Assembly: GCA_036495685.1 (NCBI GenBank)
Contig: DASXMJ010000023.1
Span: 77,020-141,019 of the forward strand
Reading direction: 5' to 3'
DNA: 64,000 nt
DNA from: Candidatus Binataceae bacterium
GTDB taxonomy: Bacteria > Desulfobacterota > Binatia > Binatales > Binataceae
Shown: positions 292-5,749 of the stretch, one piece after another
Layout: each line of letters starts with the position of its first letter
Numbering within the stretch: position 1 is the stretch's first letter
Position numbers and translations under genes: made by a program
The notes under the pieces: generated by a model
Told to the model about the DNA's origin: nothing
What the model saw: the letters and a program-made list of their open reading frames with translations, nothing else
The model's database searches: none

Positions 292-1068
292 TTGCGCATC
301 ACCTGCATCGAGCGCGTACTAATCGCGACCCCTTCCATCGCGGAGTCTCGCCGGCAATGGGCACGCGCTGGCTTTGCCATCGCGCCGAATGAAACTGAGC
401 TCGGGAGAGTCCGCTTCGTGGGACTGGCTGCGGGAGCGATCGAGATCGACTTGTGCGAGCCTGCCGGTGTCAACGCTACCCCGCTAGCGGCCGCGGTCGG
501 CGAGGCGGCCTCGCGTGGGGGCGGAATCATCGGATGGACCTGGGGAGTTGCTCGGGGCGAGCGGCATTCGAACATGCCCATCCAGCTGCCCGGAGTGGAA
601 GCGCGTGCACTTCCGCAGGAGCTCAGCGGCGTCTTTACCGCCGCGCTCGAAGTCACTGCCGATCAGAGCGCGCGTTGCCAGAGGCACCGCGAGACCTTCG
701 GAAGCAATCCGAACACGGTGGAATTTCTTGAGCACATCGTGGTGATGGCGCCAGCGCTCGACGACGCGATCGCGACCCACGAAGCCCTCGGAATTCCTTG
801 CAAGCGCATCCGTGAGGTCGGCGGCGGCACGCGCCAGGCGTTCTTCAAACTCGAGCGGACCGTCATCGAGGTCGTAGGGCCAACTCGTGATCGCACTGGA
901 TGCTGGGGGCTCGCGTTCATGTGCAGTGACATCGCACGGGCGGTCGCGGTGGTGCGGGAAAACGGGCTTGCGGCTACCGAACCAAAACCGGCCGTCCAGG
1001 GCGGCCTGATTGCCCGCATCGTCGATCCGATCGAGGGCGTGTCCATCGCCTTCATGCAGGCGCCGTGA
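292..1068 (+). CDS. VOC (glyoxalase/bleomycin-resistance/dioxygenase) superfamily protein with two modules
   Basis: A 258-aa ORF with two beta-alpha-beta-beta-beta-like modules (IERVLIATPSIAES... and EFLEHIVVMAPALDDAIATHEALGI...). The exact start is uncertain. Confidence 0.55.
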   Translation: MRITCIERVLIATPSIAESRRQWARAGFAIAPNETELGRVRFVGLAAGAIEIDLCEPAGVNATPLAAAVGEAASRGGGIIGWTWGVARGERHSNMPIQLPGVEARALPQELSGVFTAALEVTADQSARCQRHRETFGSNPNTVEFLEHIVVMAPALDDAIATHEALGIPCKRIREVGGGTRQAFFKLERTVIEVVGPTRDRTGCWGLAFMCSDIARAVAVVRENGLAATEPKPAVQGGLIARIVDPIEGVSIAFMQAP

Positions 1069-1199
1069 CTTCGAACGGAACGTGCTTCTGAATCCGCGGC
1101 ATCCGGTTCCACCGCTTTTGCCGACCCCCTGACGGCAGAGCTTTTGCGCCGCCCTCAGCGATGAATGAGAAGAGAATTCTGGGGACTTCGAACGGGATC

Positions 1200-1991
1200 T
1201 CAATTCCCCTTGAAGTCGGGCGCGCGCCGCTCCAGGAAAGACTGCAACCCTTCCTTGAAATCATTCGATCGAAACAGGATCAGCAGTTGGGTCAAGACGT
1301 GATGGGTATGCGACTCGAAGTCTTCGCTTAGGCCGTGGCGGAACAGCCGCTTCATCGCCCTGATCCCGAGCGGGGCGTTCGCCGCTATCTTTTCTGCCCA
1401 GCGCATCGATTCCGCCATCAGGTCGTCGTGCGTGACGATCTGGTTTACCAGCCCCAATTCGACCGCACGCTGCGGGGTAATGTCGTCAGCAATGAAACCG
1501 ATCTCGCACGCCCGTGCCCATCCCACCAGCCGTGGCAAATACCAGGTGCCGCCACTCTCCGGCACGATGCCGCGCTTGGCGAATGCCGGCGCGAGTTTCG
1601 CGCGATCGCTCATCAGGCGCAGGTCGCAACCGAGCGCCAAATCGAACCCGTAACCGGCCGCCGGACCGTTAATCGCGCAGATGACCGGAGTGTCGATGCG
1701 ATGAAGCGTCACGGTCGGAATTTCCAGCGTGCTCAGATGTGAGACCCCGCCACTACCGAGCGTGCCGCCGATACCGCTACCGGCAGCAGTGTCTTTGAGA
1801 TCCAGCCCGGAACAGAATCCGCGGCCCTCGCCAGTCAGAACAATCGCGCGCACGTCGCTATCGCGGTCGTACTCAGTCAGCCTCAGACCCAGCGCGGTAA
1901 GCATCTCCACGCTGATCGCATTCATTCGATCGGGACGATTCAGTCTAAGGACCGCGACATGTCCCTTTTTTTCGGCAATTAAATCACTCAT
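1200..1991 (-). CDS. enoyl-CoA hydratase/isomerase (crotonase family)
   Basis: 263 aa; starts HVAVLRLNRPDRMNAIS and carries the oxyanion-hole motif GEGRGFCSGLDLKD. Confidence 0.85.
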   Translation of the reverse strand: MSDLIAEKKGHVAVLRLNRPDRMNAISVEMLTALGLRLTEYDRDSDVRAIVLTGEGRGFCSGLDLKDTAAGSGIGGTLGSGGVSHLSTLEIPTVTLHRIDTPVICAINGPAAGYGFDLALGCDLRLMSDRAKLAPAFAKRGIVPESGGTWYLPRLVGWARACEIGFIADDITPQRAVELGLVNQIVTHDDLMAESMRWAEKIAANAPLGIRAMKRLFRHGLSEDFESHTHHVLTQLLILFRSNDFKEGLQSFLERRAPDFKGN

Positions 1992-2226
1992 CGAGATCTC
2001 CTCAACGCACCGGTCCCTACCATATCCACCTCAGACCCAACAACGTTTTCGATTCCTTGATCGTATTCGGCGGCACGCCTCCCACTCGCGTTCTTCCCGC
2101 GGGTGCCGCGCGGCGTGTGGAGAACACGTACGTCTGGGCCATCTGAACCGGCGAAGTCCGATGCCCGAATCTCCAGCGTGACGTCGTCACGGCGGCCCAC
2201 TCAAAAGCGCAGAGTAGCCATAAAAA

Positions 2227-4671
2227 CTACGGCTCCGAGTAAGCCGCTTTGTACTGCTCGTGCAGTTTCTCTTGGGCGGCCGCAGCCTCATCCGCGGTAT
2301 TATAAGGGCCGATTCGCACCGCATACTGCGTCTCTCCGTTTATAGTTCTGGTTTTCTCGCACGCTTTGTACCCGAGCCCCGCGATGCGCCCGACCATCGC
2401 GTCCGCTTCGCTCTTCTCGCTTACCGCACTCACCTCAATGTTGTAGCGGTGAGGCGTCGGCACGCATTGTGATGGAGCTGGGCCAGTGGATGGCGCGCTT
2501 TCAGTCGCGGACTCCTCATCCCCGGAAGCAGCCTCCGAGGAAATGATCGTCGTTTTCGATCGCGGGAGCGATGGCGCCGGCTCATTGCGTCTTTCAGTCG
2601 ATGCCATTTTCCCATGTTTTGGCGTGTTCGGTTTCACCACCATTGGCGGTGCAGGTTCGGCTGGGCCTCTGGATTCGGGCATGCTCTCGGGCGGCCGCGG
2701 CGGAATCGCCTTGCTCGCCTGGACCGGCGCCACGGTTGGCTGCGTCGCATTTTCTTCTCGGTAACGCTTCCAGCGGTCAATTCCGGAGGAAAGCGCGAGC
2801 AGCAACACAACGACCAAGCCTATCCGCAATCTCCCACGGCGGCGACACAGACCCCGCGTGCTACGGCGACCATCGTCACGGGGTGAAGGCTCGCGAGCTT
2901 CGCCGAAAACGAATTGCTCCCGCTCGAGACCTCGCTCTCTCCCACGAGCTTCAGGCGCGGCCCGGGGAATCGGAGGGGGCTCACGCCGGGGACCCGTCGC
3001 GGTGTCGGACGGCAACTCGATAACTTTACTGGGCTGCTCAGAAGCCGCCGCCCACAGCACCGCGAAAACGCGATGCGAACCGCTAAGTCCCTTGAGGTTC
3101 AGATCCCGACCACCATCAAAGCGAATATCGCCGGCGCTCTCGGTCATCGCCTTGAAGGTCGCCGACACTAGGATCTGTGCACCGCTGGCGGCGGCGCCGA
3201 TTCGCGCCGCCAGGACCACCGTTTTTCCGAAAAAGTCACCCGCCTCGCGGATCGCCTCGCCGGTGTTGAGACCGATGCGCACCCGCAGGGGTGCCTCGGG
3301 ATGCTGCTTCGAGTACGTTGCCAGCCATCGCTGGATCTCCACCGCGCACAGCAACGCGCGGCGCGCACTCGAAAACGCAACCATGAAACCATCACCCATG
3401 GTTTTAACTTCGTAGCCGCCCTCCTTGGCGACCTGCTCGCGAACCGCACGATTGTGGATTTGAAAGACCTCCTGCGCGCGCAGATCGCCGAGCTTCTCGA
3501 TGATCAGGGTGGAGTTCTCGATGTCCGAAAACATGATGCTCACGGTTCCATCAGGAGCCGCGTGGCCGCTCAGATTCGGCCGCTCCACCATCACGGTCGA
3601 TGCCATCTGGTCCATCGCCCCACGCGAGGAGCCGGCGATGGTGTGCAGCGTCTCTCGGACCATCGCTGCACTCAGGGGCCGCTCCGCCGGGGTCTTCGCG
3701 AGCAGTTTCAGCACCAGAGCATCAAGCGCCGGCGAGATGCCCGGAGCATGCTTTGAGGGCACTTCCGGTACCGCGTTGACGTGCTGCGAGATAATGGCCA
3801 TCAGATCGTCGCCGATGAACGGCGGACGACCGGTGAGCAATTCGTAGATCAGCGCGCCCAGTGAATAGAGATCGCTTCGCGGCTCGAGCGCGCGCCCCAC
3901 CGCCTGCTCAGGCGACATATAGGCAGCCGTCCCGACCATCATCCCATGCGACGTAATGCGCGATTGATCGGGTGCAATCGCAAGGCCGAAATCACCGAGC
4001 AGCGGCGTACCGTCGCCGGAAAGAAACACATTGGCGGGCTTGATGTCGCGATGGACGATGCCGAGCGAATGCGCATATTCAACTCCAAGACACAGCTGTT
4101 CGGCGATTCGAATGGTATCGGTGACCGGCAAACGATGACCGGGTGCGTGGCGCAGCAAATCGCTGAGCGAACCCCCAGGCACATATTGGCTGACGATGTA
4201 GGGGCGGCCCTGCTCCGCTTCGCCGATGTCGTAGATGCCGACGATATGCGGGTGGTCGCCGAGGCGGCCCATCGCGCGTGCCTCGCGCAGAACTCGCGCG
4301 CGGCCCGCGTCGTCCAGCCCCTCGACCCGAAACAAGGCAACCGCCACATCGCGATCCAAGGTCTCGTCGTGGGCGAGGTAGACGACCTTGCTGCCGCCCT
4401 CGCCCAGGATCCGACGCACGCGATAGCGCCCGCCGGCGATCGACTCCACCTGGGGCTGGGCCGCGGCGGAGGGTGGGCCCGCGGTACCCACCCCAGAGCC
4501 TAACGACGAATTGGAGCGCGCGGAAAGCGACTTACCGCATCTACCGCAGAACTTCTCATCGGCGCGGTTGCTGGCGCCGCATACGGAGCAGGCAACTTCG
4601 AGCGCCGCCCCGCATTGGCCACAGAAACTACGCCCCTCGGCGTTAGCGCTGCCACAGGACCCACACAGCAC
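2227..4671 (-). CDS. multidomain signalling protein: double zinc ribbon - Ser/Thr protein kinase - class III adenylyl/guanylyl cyclase - TM helix - SPOR domain
   Basis: 814 aa. The N-terminus has two CxxC...CxxC ribbons. Kinase motifs are present: GEGGSKVVY, HRDIKPAN, DFG, SPE. The cyclase domain carries FSDIENST, KTMGDGFMVAF and RIGLNTGEA. A hydrophobic helix LRIGLVVVLLLALSSGI follows. The C-terminal roughly 75 aa match the SPOR pattern (YNIEVSAVSEKSEADAMVGRIAGLGYKA...YAVRIGPYNTADEA). Confidence 0.85.
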   Translation of the reverse strand: MLCGSCGSANAEGRSFCGQCGAALEVACSVCGASNRADEKFCGRCGKSLSARSNSSLGSGVGTAGPPSAAAQPQVESIAGGRYRVRRILGEGGSKVVYLAHDETLDRDVAVALFRVEGLDDAGRARVLREARAMGRLGDHPHIVGIYDIGEAEQGRPYIVSQYVPGGSLSDLLRHAPGHRLPVTDTIRIAEQLCLGVEYAHSLGIVHRDIKPANVFLSGDGTPLLGDFGLAIAPDQSRITSHGMMVGTAAYMSPEQAVGRALEPRSDLYSLGALIYELLTGRPPFIGDDLMAIISQHVNAVPEVPSKHAPGISPALDALVLKLLAKTPAERPLSAAMVRETLHTIAGSSRGAMDQMASTVMVERPNLSGHAAPDGTVSIMFSDIENSTLIIEKLGDLRAQEVFQIHNRAVREQVAKEGGYEVKTMGDGFMVAFSSARRALLCAVEIQRWLATYSKQHPEAPLRVRIGLNTGEAIREAGDFFGKTVVLAARIGAAASGAQILVSATFKAMTESAGDIRFDGGRDLNLKGLSGSHRVFAVLWAAASEQPSKVIELPSDTATGPRREPPPIPRAAPEARGRERGLEREQFVFGEAREPSPRDDGRRSTRGLCRRRGRLRIGLVVVLLLALSSGIDRWKRYREENATQPTVAPVQASKAIPPRPPESMPESRGPAEPAPPMVVKPNTPKHGKMASTERRNEPAPSLPRSKTTIISSEAASGDEESATESAPSTGPAPSQCVPTPHRYNIEVSAVSEKSEADAMVGRIAGLGYKACEKTRTINGETQYAVRIGPYNTADEAAAAQEKLHEQYKAAYSEP

Positions 4672-4777
4672 CCGCCTATTGTAACCAGACGCTTCGCCGA
4701 GGACACACGGGTGTACAGCAAATTCCTGCCGCCTAGGGAGCTGCGATCGATCCCGGCGAAATCCGCGAAATTGGCTG

Positions 4778-5749
4778 CTACGCGGATGCGATCCGGAAGC
4801 CCAGCTTCGGAAAGTGGTTCACAATCTTGCCTAGCTGCGAATCTTCGCGTTCAATCGCAATCTCGTAAGCCGAACTCGCCACCACCATCCCCGTCACCGG
4901 ATCGAAGCCGTAGTCTTCCGGTGTCACCGAGACCCGCGCCCCGGGCTTGAGCTCGTTGGGATCGCCGCTGTCCGCGGATTGTTTCGTCCCCGGGGTGCTC
5001 TCTTTCGCGATCTTGAGTGCCTCGTCCGCGTCCATCGGATTAACGTCGCCGTATCCCATCGCGTCGATTCGTTCAAACCACCTCATGAGGCTCGCACACT
5101 TCTGCGCCATCGCGAATGCACCCGGCTCGGCCCGCAGGAACCACACGCAATGGAAGCATGCGGCATCTGCGAGACTGAACGACGAGCCGAGGATGAAGGG
5201 CTGGTCGGCGAGCGTGCGATCCAGGTTGTCGAGGTAGGCGCGCACATAGTTGCGCGCATCGGGGGCAAGCAACGTGAGCTCTTCGAAATTGGCGCCGCGC
5301 ATCATCTTGGAGCGGTCGTCGAGAAACTCCTTACCGATCAGCGGCGCCAGCTTCTCAAAGATCACCGGGGTGGTGGAAAAGAAGAATCGTCGATCGGCGA
5401 ACAGGTTGATCATGAGACACGCCGCCTGCGTCCCGTGCGGATAGCTGGTCGGCTCCGGGAACAGTTCGTCGATTTTGCGGATGATAATCCCGGTGTCGCA
5501 CCACACGTCGGCGCCGATTTGGAGCACCGGAATGCGCCGATAGCCACCGGTCAACGGAATCAGCTTGGGCTTGGGCATGATGACCGGCTGCTCGACCGAT
5601 CGCCAGCTTACTTTCTTATGCGCAAAAATCTTCCGGATCTTTTCGGAAAACGGCGAGCTCGCATACTGATGAAGAATTATCTCGGGCACTGGGTCGCTCC
5701 TGACCTCGGCGCGGGATGGCAGCGCCAAGTCCGAGAGAGTTAACCACAA
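4778..5749 (-). CDS. glutathione S-transferase family protein
   Basis: 323 aa. It has a thioredoxin-like N-terminus (ILHQYASSPFSEKIRKIF...IPVLQIG) and an alpha-helical GST C-terminal region. Confidence 0.65.
   Translation of the reverse strand: MWLTLSDLALPSRAEVRSDPVPEIILHQYASSPFSEKIRKIFAHKKVSWRSVEQPVIMPKPKLIPLTGGYRRIPVLQIGADVWCDTGIIIRKIDELFPEPTSYPHGTQAACLMINLFADRRFFFSTTPVIFEKLAPLIGKEFLDDRSKMMRGANFEELTLLAPDARNYVRAYLDNLDRTLADQPFILGSSFSLADAACFHCVWFLRAEPGAFAMAQKCASLMRWFERIDAMGYGDVNPMDADEALKIAKESTPGTKQSADSGDPNELKPGARVSVTPEDYGFDPVTGMVVASSAYEIAIEREDSQLGKIVNHFPKLGFRIASA

What the first reader, a model, noticed from the sequence alone, without database searches (positions are those of the whole stretch)
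4336..4389. Kinase domain has VAVA instead of the canonical VAVK catalytic lysine; a lysine sits at the WNK position in the glycine loop
In the beta3 strand the invariant ATP-anchoring lysine (PknB VAVKVL, PKA YAMKIL) reads DVAVALF here; Ala112 replaces Lys. HRD, DFG, SPE and the alpha-C Glu are all intact. The Gly loop reads GEGGSKVVY. Its Lys95 is exactly where WNK kinases place their relocated catalytic lysine (GRGSFKTVY). Either this is a pseudokinase scaffold fused to a cyclase, or it is a bacterial With-No-K-type active kinase. Both are noteworthy.
Basis: partly seen in the sequence, partly recalled or inferred. Interest (0 to 1): 0.65.

Follow-up and report, generated by a model that had tools for sequence, protein, structure and literature searches.

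The report
Bacterial kinase with WNK-style relocated lysine
This bacterial signalling protein's kinase domain has moved its ATP-anchoring lysine to the glycine loop, as human WNK kinases do; the same arrangement defines a large clade of kinase–adenylyl-cyclase fusion proteins that I did not find described in the papers I could search.

Summary
In the 814-aa ORF at 2227..4671 (- strand), Ala112 (4336-4338) sits where PknB has Lys40. Lys95 (4387-4389) sits at the third-glycine position of the Gly loop, where WNK1 has Lys233.

It is not an artefact. Every similarity-selected relative with an aligned N-lobe has the Gly-loop Lys and Ala/Ser/Cys in beta3, except one member that has also lost the HRD aspartate. 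The boundary is sharp: domains at least 52% identical to the query have the signature, and domains at most 47% identical have the normal beta3 lysine. None of 455 domains has both lysines.

The other catalytic residues (alphaC Glu, HRD Asp, catalytic-loop Lys and Asn, DFG Asp, APE Glu) are kept in 230-232 of 232 members. Three more ATP-pocket positions changed with the lysine and match the WNK1 residue or its class.

The domain is PknB-like in sequence and fold and is no closer to WNK1 than ordinary bacterial kinases are, so the resemblance is convergent.

The clade is nearly always fused to a class III cyclase. It occurs in Chloroflexota, Actinomycetota (including cultured mycobacteria) and Binatia.

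The most likely reading is an active "with-no-lysine" Ser/Thr kinase plus adenylyl cyclase with a periplasmic SPOR domain. Catalysis is inferred, not shown.

The parts
2227..4671 (-). Whole gene, 814 aa: double zinc ribbon, Ser/Thr kinase, class III cyclase, TM helix, SPOR
   Evidence: ORF list. Pfam hits Pkinase 155 bits, Guanylate_cyc 69.5, SPOR 48.9, DZR 37.2. Orthologues of 802-836 aa have the same architecture.
4525..4665 (-). N-terminal double zinc ribbon (residues 3-49)
   Evidence: Pfam DZR and Zn_Ribbon_1. Retained in relatives from Binataceae to Mycobacterium.
3658..4425 (-). Protein kinase domain (residues 83-338), PknB-like
   Evidence: PF00069 E 2.8e-45. PknB structures E 1e-57. 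AF2 model pLDDT 87, Foldseek TM 0.84-0.92 to PknB.
4378..4404 (-). Gly loop GEGGSKVVY (residues 90-98). Lys95 (4387-4389) is at the third-glycine position and is the proposed relocated ATP-anchoring lysine.
   Evidence: aligned with WNK1 K233. K in 117/118, 35/35 and 115/115 relatives.
4330..4350 (-). Beta3 strand DVAVALF (residues 108-114). Ala112 (4336-4338) replaces the canonical VAIK lysine.
   Evidence: Aligned to PknB K40 and WNK1 C250. In the family this position is A 210, S 21, C 1 of 232.
4282..4284 (-). AlphaC Glu130, the salt-bridge partner of the ATP-anchoring lysine
   Evidence: E in 232/232 family members.
4189..4191 (-). Gatekeeper Ser161
   Evidence: Family S 166 and T 33 of 232, against Met in 158 of 201 canonical relatives. 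WNK1 has Thr.
4024..4053 (-). Catalytic loop HRDIKPAN (residues 207-214) and beta7 Phe216
   Evidence: D209 232/232, K211 231/232, N214 230/232. Position 216 is W or F in 226/232, against L/M/I in canonical relatives. WNK1 has Phe.
3985..3996 (-). G226 plus DFG (residues 226-229)
   Evidence: DFG Asp 232/232. The DFG-1 residue is Gly in 228/232, against T/L/A/S/M in canonical relatives. WNK1 has Gly.
3907..3915 (-). SPE (APE-motif equivalent, residues 253-255)
   Evidence: Glu in 231/232.
3082..3555 (-). Class III nucleotidyl cyclase domain (residues 373-530). Predicted adenylyl cyclase: D383, K423, D427, D479 and R490 present, with Val486 (3214-3216) in place of the transition-state Asn.
   Evidence: PF00211 69.5 bits. 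Residue table. Closest solved relative is the active adenylyl cyclase Ma1120, E 1e-41, which has Ala at the Asn position.
2779..2829 (-). Single hydrophobic segment LRIGLVVVLLLALSSGI (residues 615-631) preceded by an Arg-rich stretch; predicted TM helix, N-terminus inside
   Evidence: Read from the translation. The topology is inferred from the positive-inside rule and from the periplasmic role of SPOR domains.
2242..2448 (-). C-terminal SPOR domain (residues 742-810)
   Evidence: PF05036 E 8.5e-13, 48.9 bits against a cut-off of 21.

Best explanation
The gene encodes a single-pass membrane receptor. The cytoplasmic part is a double zinc ribbon, a PknB-like Ser/Thr kinase and a class III adenylyl cyclase. 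The periplasmic part is a SPOR peptidoglycan-binding domain.

The kinase belongs to a large bacterial clade in which the ATP-anchoring lysine has moved from strand beta3 (here Ala112) to the cross-strand neighbouring position at the start of beta2 (Lys95, the third-glycine position of the Gly loop). This is the arrangement of eukaryotic WNK kinases, reached independently.

Proposed mechanism. [quoted passage not shown] The intact HRD, DFG and APE machinery then transfers the phosphate. The pocket was remodelled along with the move: Ser gatekeeper, Gly before DFG, aromatic residue on beta7, and loss of the Gly-loop Met / alphaC Phe pair.

By analogy with PASTA kinases, binding of SPOR to septal peptidoglycan would concentrate and dimerise the protein. 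That would switch on both the kinase (back-to-back dimer) and the obligately dimeric cyclase, giving two outputs: Ser/Thr phosphorylation and cAMP.

Shown: residue positions, conservation, clade structure and domain architecture. Inferred: catalysis through Lys95, topology, SPOR-driven activation and the cAMP output.
For: - **Positions.** A112 is opposite the PknB beta3 Lys. K95 and A112 are opposite WNK1 K233 and C250 without gaps. The spacing between the two positions is 17 residues here, in PknB and in WNK1, read from the alignments.
- **Conservation of the pair.** 117/118, 35/35 and 115/115. None of 455 domains has both lysines: 232 have the signature, 201 are canonical and 22 have neither.
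- **Catalytic residues in 232 members.** AlphaC E 232, HRD D 232, catalytic-loop K 231, N 230, DFG D 232, APE E 231, F-helix D 231.
- **Beta3 residue** is only A, S or C, as expected if space is needed for a lysine coming from beta2.
- **The one exception.** The only member without the Gly-loop Lys (P0094, Gln) also has HRN instead of HRD.
- **Co-varying pocket positions** match WNK1 (G before DFG) or its residue class (Thr/Ser gatekeeper, aromatic beta7).
- **Clade.** It is monophyletic in a neighbour-joining tree built without the signature columns, with 31/50 bootstraps.
- **Cyclase.** Both metal Asp, K/D adenine specificity and the Arg are kept. The domain is closest to the active adenylyl cyclase Ma1120, which also lacks the Asn; the A164N mutation drastically reduced its adenylyl cyclase activity.
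- **WNK precedent.** K233 of WNK1 is required for catalysis (Xu et al. 2000, Min et al. 2004, as cited in PMC1821047).
Against: - No biochemical data exist for any member that I could find.
- The AF2 model was returned without coordinates, so the distance from Lys95 to Glu130 and the ATP site could not be measured.
- By the formal definition (loss of the VAIK Lys) it counts as a pseudokinase.
- The near-constant fusion to a cyclase recalls the inactive kinase-homology domain of animal receptor guanylyl cyclases.
- Bootstrap support for the clade is only moderate (62%).
- No phosphatase, FHA or cNMP-binding partner lies nearby; the neighbours are metabolic genes.
- SPOR-driven activation is pure analogy.
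Confidence: 0.68

Rival explanations
1. The domain is a true pseudokinase. It binds ATP or serves as a dimerisation scaffold but does not transfer phosphate, and it allosterically controls the fused cyclase, like the kinase-homology domain of animal receptor guanylyl cyclases.
For: The beta3 Lys is absent. The clade is almost always fused to a class III cyclase, either directly or through an AAA_16-TPR module. Both domains use ATP. The kinase-like domain of eukaryotic guanylyl cyclases lacks catalytic residues (PMC1262709).
Against: Regulatory kinase-homology domains and the seven bacterial pseudokinase families described so far have decayed HRD and/or DFG motifs (bioRxiv 2025.01.12.632604). 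Here HRD Asp, catalytic-loop Lys and Asn, DFG Asp, APE Glu and alphaC Glu are kept in 230-232 of 232 members, more strictly than in the canonical comparison set. An invariant Lys at the one position known to substitute for the beta3 Lys is hard to explain for a scaffold. In a 545-aa subfamily the cyclase residues decay while the kinase signature stays, so the kinase is maintained for its own sake.
Confidence: 0.2
2. The domain is catalytically active but has a changed activity. The remodelled pocket (Trp/Phe on beta7, Ser gatekeeper, Gly before DFG, basic Gly loop) might select another nucleotide or another phospho-acceptor instead of ordinary ATP-dependent Ser/Thr protein phosphorylation.
For: Several residues lining the nucleotide pocket differ systematically from canonical bacterial kinases. 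Kinase folds with moved or lost lysines have acquired other chemistries in SelO and SidJ (PMC12599244).
Against: The catalytic-loop Lys of HRDxKPxN (typical of Ser/Thr kinases), the APE motif, the activation-loop Thr/Ser and the substrate-binding lobe are PknB-like. WNK1 has the same residue or residue class at these pocket positions and is an ordinary ATP-dependent Ser/Thr kinase.
Confidence: 0.1
3. The Ala at beta3 is a sequencing or assembly error, or a product of misalignment.
For: The source is a metagenome-assembled genome (P0001 is named MAG Candidatus Binataceae).
Against: Three independent alignments agree. The same pair of residues occurs in several hundred independent sequences from many phyla and sources, including isolate genomes of Mycobacterium.
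Confidence: 0.01

Closest known systems
Eukaryotic WNK (With-No-lysine[K]) kinases, e.g. human WNK1 (PDB 5w7t, 6cn9)
   Same: Lys at the third-glycine position of the Gly loop (K233 / K95). A small non-Lys residue in beta3, 17 residues downstream (C250 / A112). AlphaC Glu and the HRD, catalytic-loop Asn and APE motifs retained. Gly before the DFG-type motif, a small hydroxyl gatekeeper (T / S) and an aromatic residue on beta7 (F / F or W).
   Different: Only 28% identical. WNK1 is equally distant from this clade (30.2%) and from ordinary bacterial kinases (29.6%), and WNK is absent from the top 50 fold matches. Ours has DFG, not the DLG of the WNK chloride site. No WNK autoinhibitory or CCT-like domains are present. 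It is bacterial and fused to a cyclase. The resemblance is therefore convergence, not membership.
PknB / Stk1-type bacterial Hanks kinases (M. tuberculosis PknB, PDB 1o6y, 1mru)
   Same: Closest sequence (E 1e-57) and fold (TM 0.84-0.92). A transmembrane receptor kinase with an extracytoplasmic peptidoglycan-binding domain (PASTA there, SPOR here). The N-lobe Leu of the back-to-back dimer interface (PknB L33) is kept as L89, read from the alignment.
   Different: The beta3 Lys is replaced. The Gly-loop Met and the alphaC 'RF' Phe, typical of bacterial kinases, are both lost. The gatekeeper is Ser, not Met. There is an additional cyclase domain and an N-terminal zinc ribbon.
Myxococcus xanthus Pkn2 (kinase + cyclase-like domain + TM + external domain)
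   Same: The same order of kinase, cyclase-homology region, TM segment and roughly 200-residue external domain. Reported to phosphorylate Ser/Thr (PMC1262709).
   Different: I could not retrieve its sequence, so whether it has the relocated lysine is untested. [quoted passage not shown]
Kinase-homology domain of animal receptor guanylyl cyclases
   Same: A kinase-fold domain N-terminal to a class III cyclase in a single-pass receptor.
   Different: Those domains lack catalytic-loop residues and are inactive regulators. Here all catalytic residues except the beta3 Lys are kept. The membrane topology also differs, because here the kinase and cyclase precede the TM segment.
Ma1120, class III adenylyl cyclase of Mycobacterium avium (PDB 4wp3)
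   Same: The closest solved relative of the cyclase domain (E 1e-41). K/D adenine-specifying pair, both metal Asp, the Arg, and no transition-state Asn (Ala164 there, Val486 here).
   Different: The solved Ma1120 chains are at most 210 residues and show no kinase. Here the cyclase is fused to a kinase.
Bacterial pseudokinase families of the 2025 bSTK atlas (ActPs1-3, CP1, DYD, DLHK, GLW)
   Same: Loss of the VAIK lysine.
   Different: As described in the preprint and the review, those families replace the Lys with Arg or Thr and/or have lost the HRD or DFG Asp. Neither text describes a compensating Gly-loop Lys (WNK is cited only as a eukaryotic precedent), and neither mentions cyclases.

Membership tests
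Hanks-type (ePK-like) Ser/Thr protein kinase, PknB-like | Pfam PF00069 match above the gathering score | tested here: met
   155.2 bits against a cut-off of 31.7, residues 83-338.
Hanks-type (ePK-like) Ser/Thr protein kinase, PknB-like | Bilobal kinase fold | tested here: met
   AF2 model pLDDT 87, pTM 0.87. Foldseek TM 0.84-0.92 to PknB.
Hanks-type (ePK-like) Ser/Thr protein kinase, PknB-like | Beta3 (VAIK) lysine | tested here: not met
   Ala112 is opposite PknB Lys40. The position is A, S or C in the whole clade.
Hanks-type (ePK-like) Ser/Thr protein kinase, PknB-like | AlphaC Glu, HRD Asp, catalytic-loop Lys and Asn, DFG Asp, APE Glu | tested here: met
   All are present in the query and in 230-232 of 232 members.
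Hanks-type (ePK-like) Ser/Thr protein kinase, PknB-like | Phosphotransfer to Ser/Thr | not testable with these tools
   Needs an in vitro kinase assay.
WNK kinases | Lys at the third-Gly position of GxGxxG (WNK1 K233) | tested here: met
   K95 aligns with K233 without gaps.
WNK kinases | Non-lysine residue at beta3 (WNK1 C250) | tested here: met
   A112 aligns with C250.
WNK kinases | Common descent with WNK (closest similarity to WNK sequences) | tested here: not met
   28% identity. Identity to WNK1 is 30.2% for the clade and 29.6% for canonical bacterial kinases. The best PDB hits by sequence and fold are PknB, PknA and StkP, not WNK.
WNK kinases | DLG motif of the chloride-binding site, and WNK accessory (autoinhibitory, CCT-like) domains | tested here: not met
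   GDFG here against GDLG in WNK1. Pfam finds only zinc ribbon, cyclase and SPOR besides the kinase.
WNK kinases | The Gly-loop Lys is required for catalysis | not testable with these tools
   Needs K95A and A112K mutants.
Pseudokinase (operational definition) | Lacks at least one of the VAIK Lys, HRD Asp and DFG Asp | tested here: met
   The VAIK Lys is absent.
Pseudokinase (operational definition) | No catalytic activity; relaxed constraint on the remaining catalytic residues | tested here: not met
   The constraint is not relaxed: 230-232 of 232 at every other catalytic position. Activity itself is not testable here.
Class III adenylyl cyclase | PF00211 match; two metal-binding Asp; Lys/Asp adenine-specifying pair; transition-state Arg | tested here: met
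   69.5 bits against 21.9. D383, D427, K423, D479 and R490 are present.
Class III adenylyl cyclase | Transition-state Asn | tested here: not met
   Val486. The same position is Ala164 in the active cyclase Ma1120, where A164N lowers activity.
SPOR-domain septal peptidoglycan binders | PF05036 match above the gathering score | tested here: met
   48.9 bits against 21, residues 742-810.
SPOR-domain septal peptidoglycan binders | Binding to denuded glycan strands; septal localisation | not testable with these tools
   Needs binding and localisation experiments.
TOMM system kinase/cyclase fusion protein (TIGR03903) | Score above the curated equivalog cut-off | tested here: not met
   136.8 bits against 705.75 for the query. 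101-307 bits for eight other clade members.

The most novel reading that the evidence does not exclude
A whole bacterial clade of catalytically active 'with-no-lysine' kinases arose independently of eukaryotic WNKs. It reached the same solution down to the accompanying pocket substitutions: Gly-loop Lys, small beta3 residue, Gly before DFG, small hydroxyl gatekeeper and aromatic beta7. The clade is structurally tied to cAMP synthesis, giving dual-output receptors (protein phosphorylation plus cAMP). In this protein the receptor would read septal peptidoglycan through a SPOR domain.
Probability: 0.55. Interest if true: 0.75.

Novelty: new variant of a known kind. Interest (0 to 1): 0.62.

Why it matters
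WNK kinases have been described as the only functional ePK family lacking the beta3 lysine (PMC1821047). A second, independent and much more diverse lineage with the same relocation would matter in four ways.

- It would show that this active-site rearrangement is a repeatable evolutionary solution. The co-varying positions would indicate which other pocket residues must change with it.
- It would remove several hundred, probably thousands, of bacterial proteins from the automatic "pseudokinase" bin that motif-based censuses would assign them to.
- It would offer a tractable bacterial model for the WNK-type ATP site. Members occur in cultured mycobacteria, including the human pathogens M. haemophilum and M. 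riyadhense.
- It would point to an unstudied class of receptors that couple Ser/Thr phosphorylation and cAMP synthesis in one polypeptide.

Tried and rejected
- **Misalignment or artefact.** Rejected by three independent alignments and by conservation.
- **WNK orthology or horizontal transfer from eukaryotes.** Rejected. Identity to WNK1 is the same as for ordinary bacterial kinases, and the fold hits are PknB.
- **Membership of the TOMM kinase/cyclase family TIGR03903.** Rejected because scores are far below the cut-off.
- **Geometry of Lys95.** Structure prediction returned pLDDT and secondary structure but no coordinates. The distance to Glu130 and ATP could not be measured.
- **Plasmid collection, tblastn.** Only canonical kinases below 47% identity, no clade member.
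- **Genomic context.** Only metabolic neighbours: GST, enoyl-CoA hydratase, nitroreductase, MFS transporter, carboxyl transferase. The synteny is conserved among Binataceae but holds no signalling partner. The window has no second kinase or cyclase.
- **Literature.** Nine full-text searches found no description of a bacterial WNK-like kinase or of this kinase-cyclase clade's lysine. Perez et al. 2008 (myxobacterial kinome) and Kwon et al. 2019 could not be fetched under the identifiers I tried, and my recalled PMC id for Kwon may be wrong. Prior mention elsewhere therefore cannot be excluded.
- **M. xanthus Pkn2.** Its sequence could not be retrieved, so its status is unknown.
- **Taxonomy of representative clusters.** The cluster look-up gave little.
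Full report
**What is at the coordinates**

The range 4336-4389 lies inside an 814-codon ORF on the minus strand, 2227..4671. In its translation the Gly loop GEGGSKVVY is residues 90-98 and the beta3 strand DVAVALF is residues 108-114. Pfam gives the architecture:

| Residues | Domain |
|---|---|
| 3-49 | double zinc ribbon |
| 83-338 | Pkinase, 155 bits |
| 373-530 | class III cyclase |
| 742-810 | SPOR |

A single hydrophobic segment at 615-631, preceded by an Arg-rich stretch, lies between the cyclase and SPOR. An identical protein is named "MAG: protein kinase [Candidatus Binataceae bacterium]".

**Is the alignment right?**

Yes. HMMER against solved structures gives M. tuberculosis PknB as best hit (E 1e-57). 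It aligns "rdvavalfr" with "RDVAVKVLR" without gaps, so Ala112 is opposite PknB's ATP-anchoring lysine. I wrote the WNK1 kinase domain from memory and verified it as 100% identical to PDB 5w7t. BLASTP then aligns LGEGGSKVVY...DVAVA with IGRGSFKTVY...EVAWC without gaps, giving K95=K233 and A112=C250.

The two positions are 17 residues apart here, in PknB and in WNK1 (read). From established kinase structure (not measured here), the third-Gly position of beta2 and the beta3 Lys are cross-strand neighbours facing the nucleotide. This is why a lysine at either place can reach the phosphates.

**Is it conserved?**

- Of the 120 best homologues, 118 have a kinase domain. Of these, 117 have Lys in the Gly loop, and beta3 is Ala (101 plus the exception), Ser (16) or Cys (1).
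- The one exception (P0094, Gln in the Gly loop) also has HRN in place of HRD.
- A scan of 1.84 billion cluster representatives with the kinase domain gave a sharp boundary. All 35 domains at least 52% identical to the query read GEGxxK...VAx[A/S]. Of those at most 47% identical, the full-length ones read GxGxMG...VAxK, apart from a few degenerate domains with neither lysine.
- Among 455 near-full-length domains, 232 have the relocated pattern, 201 have the canonical pattern, 22 have neither lysine and none has both. The 22 are mostly degenerate repeats in multi-kinase proteins.
- A DNA pattern encoding G-E-G-x-x-K-x-V-[YF]-x9-[DE]-[VIM]-A-x-[AS] was scanned over one genome per species. By my own hand calculation, assuming equal base frequencies, about one chance match is expected. 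The scan stopped at its 120-stretch limit, and 121 of 123 matches lie in kinase domains. The complete ones have HRDxKPxN and DFG.
- Hosts are mainly Dehalococcoidia and other Chloroflexota, Acidimicrobiia and other Actinomycetota, "delta proteobacterium"/Binatia MAGs, and Myxococcota. Isolates include Mycobacterium gastri DSM 43505, Mycolicibacterium hodleri and Mycobacterium sp. 1164985.4.
- A search seeded with the M. gastri protein added M. ostraviense, M. haemophilum, M. colombiense and M. riyadhense. All 115 of its relatives with an aligned N-lobe have the signature.

**Active kinase or pseudokinase?**

Counts in the 232-member set:

| Residue | Kept in |
|---|---|
| alphaC Glu | 232 |
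| HRD Asp | 232 |
| catalytic-loop Lys | 231 |
| catalytic-loop Asn | 230 |
| DFG Asp | 232 |
| APE Glu | 231 |
| F-helix Asp | 231 |

This is stricter than in the canonical comparison set. The bacterial pseudokinase families described so far have lost HRD and/or DFG, or carry Arg or Thr at beta3. Neither the atlas preprint nor the review describes a compensating Gly-loop lysine or mentions cyclases.

Further pocket positions changed together with the lysine:

| Position | This clade | Canonical bacterial kinases | WNK1 |
|---|---|---|---|
| Gatekeeper | Ser/Thr, 199/232 | Met | Thr |
| Residue before DFG | Gly, 228/232 | T/L/A/S/M | Gly |
| Beta7 residue under the adenine | Trp/Phe, 226/232 | L/M/I | Phe |

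The bacterial-kinase hallmark pair of Gly-loop Met and alphaC "RF" Phe is also replaced, by S/K/R and V/I. A coordinated, conserved remodelling of the ATP pocket around an invariant lysine is what an active enzyme would show. A decaying one would not.

**Is it a WNK?**

No. Identity to WNK1 is 28%. With signature columns removed, WNK1 is 30.2% identical to the clade and 29.6% to canonical bacterial kinases, while PknB is 41.7% identical to the clade. The AF2 model (pLDDT 87) matches PknB, PknA and Stk1 first, with TM 0.84-0.92, and no WNK appears in the top 50. The motif is DFG, not the DLG of the WNK chloride site. The clade is monophyletic in a neighbour-joining tree (31/50 bootstraps). It works like a WNK at the ATP site but is a PknB-type kinase by descent, so the resemblance is convergence.

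**The rest of the protein**

Clade members are nearly always fused to a class III cyclase. The fusion is either direct, as here, or takes the form zinc ribbon - kinase - AAA_16 - TPR - cyclase in proteins of about 1,450 aa. None reaches the TOMM kinase/cyclase equivalog cut-off.

The cyclase keeps both metal Asp, the Lys/Asp adenine-specifying pair and the Arg, but has Val486 for the transition-state Asn. Its closest solved relative is M. avium Ma1120 (E 1e-41). Ma1120 is an active adenylyl cyclase with Ala at that position, and its A164N mutant is impaired (PMC4215837). The missing Asn is therefore not evidence of inactivity.

The Arg-rich segment before the TM helix and the known periplasmic role of SPOR domains suggest an N-in topology with SPOR outside. 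This is an inference.

Neighbours are metabolic genes: GST upstream and enoyl-CoA hydratase downstream. The synteny is kept in orthologues at 60-74% identity, with no signalling partner. The window holds no other kinase or cyclase.

**Mechanism proposed**

- Lys95 takes over the role of the beta3 lysine, pairing with Glu130 and holding the ATP phosphates. This rests on conservation and on the WNK1 precedent.
- The intact catalytic loop then phosphorylates Ser/Thr.
- By analogy with PASTA kinases, SPOR-mediated recruitment to septal peptidoglycan would promote dimerisation. That would activate both the kinase and the obligately dimeric cyclase.
- Only the first point is well supported. The remainder is a working model.

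**Limits**

- No coordinates were available, so Lys95 geometry is unmeasured.
- No member has been assayed, to my knowledge.
- The closest characterised architecture, M. xanthus Pkn2, is reported to phosphorylate Ser/Thr (kinase - cyclase-like - TM, PMC1262709). I could not check it for the signature.
- Two key papers could not be fetched under the identifiers I tried, so prior description cannot be excluded. Within the searchable literature WNK is called the only functional ePK family without the beta3 lysine, and no bacterial counterpart is mentioned.

**Verdict**

It applies to a large clade that I did not find described in the searchable literature. It is a new variant of a known kind, of real interest to kinase specialists, and testable in cultured mycobacteria.

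Noticed in passing
window 4492-4671 (residues 1-60): The public NCBI call of this gene (P0001, 754 aa) starts about 60 codons inside the ORF and omits the double zinc ribbon. The ribbon is conserved in relatives from Binataceae to Mycobacterium, so GTG at 4671 is the likelier start.
   Followed up: partly
window 3214-3216 (Val486): The cyclase lacks the canonical transition-state Asn; it is V or I in 81 close relatives and N in more distant ones. The closest solved cyclase, the active Ma1120 of M. avium, has Ala there, and its A164N mutant loses activity.
   Followed up: yes
P0072, P0073, P0078, P0086-P0091 (about 545 aa): In this short subfamily the cyclase catalytic residues have decayed (K to R, GD to NE/DE/ND, R to K, and no Pfam cyclase hit in most). 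The kinase keeps the relocated-lysine signature and all catalytic motifs.
   Followed up: partly
P0094; P0123 residues 606-873 and 898-1176: P0094 is the only member without the Gly-loop Lys (Gln), and it also has HRN for HRD. P0123 carries two clade-type domains in tandem. The upstream copy is degenerate (HGD, DFS) but still has the Gly-loop Lys, so it is probably a true pseudokinase derivative.
   Followed up: no
window 4390-4392 (Ser94) and 4291-4293 (Val127): The Gly-loop Met and the alphaC 'RF' Phe pack against each other in typical bacterial kinases. Both are replaced throughout the clade, by S/K/R and V/I. This suggests a remodelled Gly-loop/alphaC interface.
   Followed up: partly
L087 (M. 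gastri DSM 43505) 325-4761; L076 (M. hodleri); P0265, P0266, P0274, P0278, P0297: Cultured mycobacteria carry ~1,480-aa members with the full signature, built as zinc ribbon - kinase - AAA_16 - (TPR) - cyclase. The species are M. gastri, M. hodleri, M. ostraviense, M. haemophilum, M. colombiense and M. riyadhense (two distinct homologues, 78% and 70% identical to the M. gastri query). The named database entries read 'protein kinase domain-containing protein', 'hypothetical protein' or 'non-specific serine/threonine protein kinase'.
   Followed up: partly
L069 and L105: Two contigs carrying clade members are binned as archaea (Bathyarchaeia and Methanobacteriota MAGs). This could be binning contamination or horizontal transfer.
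   Followed up: no
L101 2047-7998: A 1,984-aa or longer protein with an ABC1/UbiB atypical kinase domain fused upstream of a clade kinase and an AAA_16 module.
   Followed up: no
window 1200-1991 and 4778-5749; L121, L122: The gene order GST - kinase/cyclase/SPOR - enoyl-CoA hydratase is conserved in Binataceae orthologues at 60-74% protein identity, with nitroreductase and carboxyl transferase further upstream. No phosphatase, FHA or cNMP-binding gene is nearby.
   Followed up: yes
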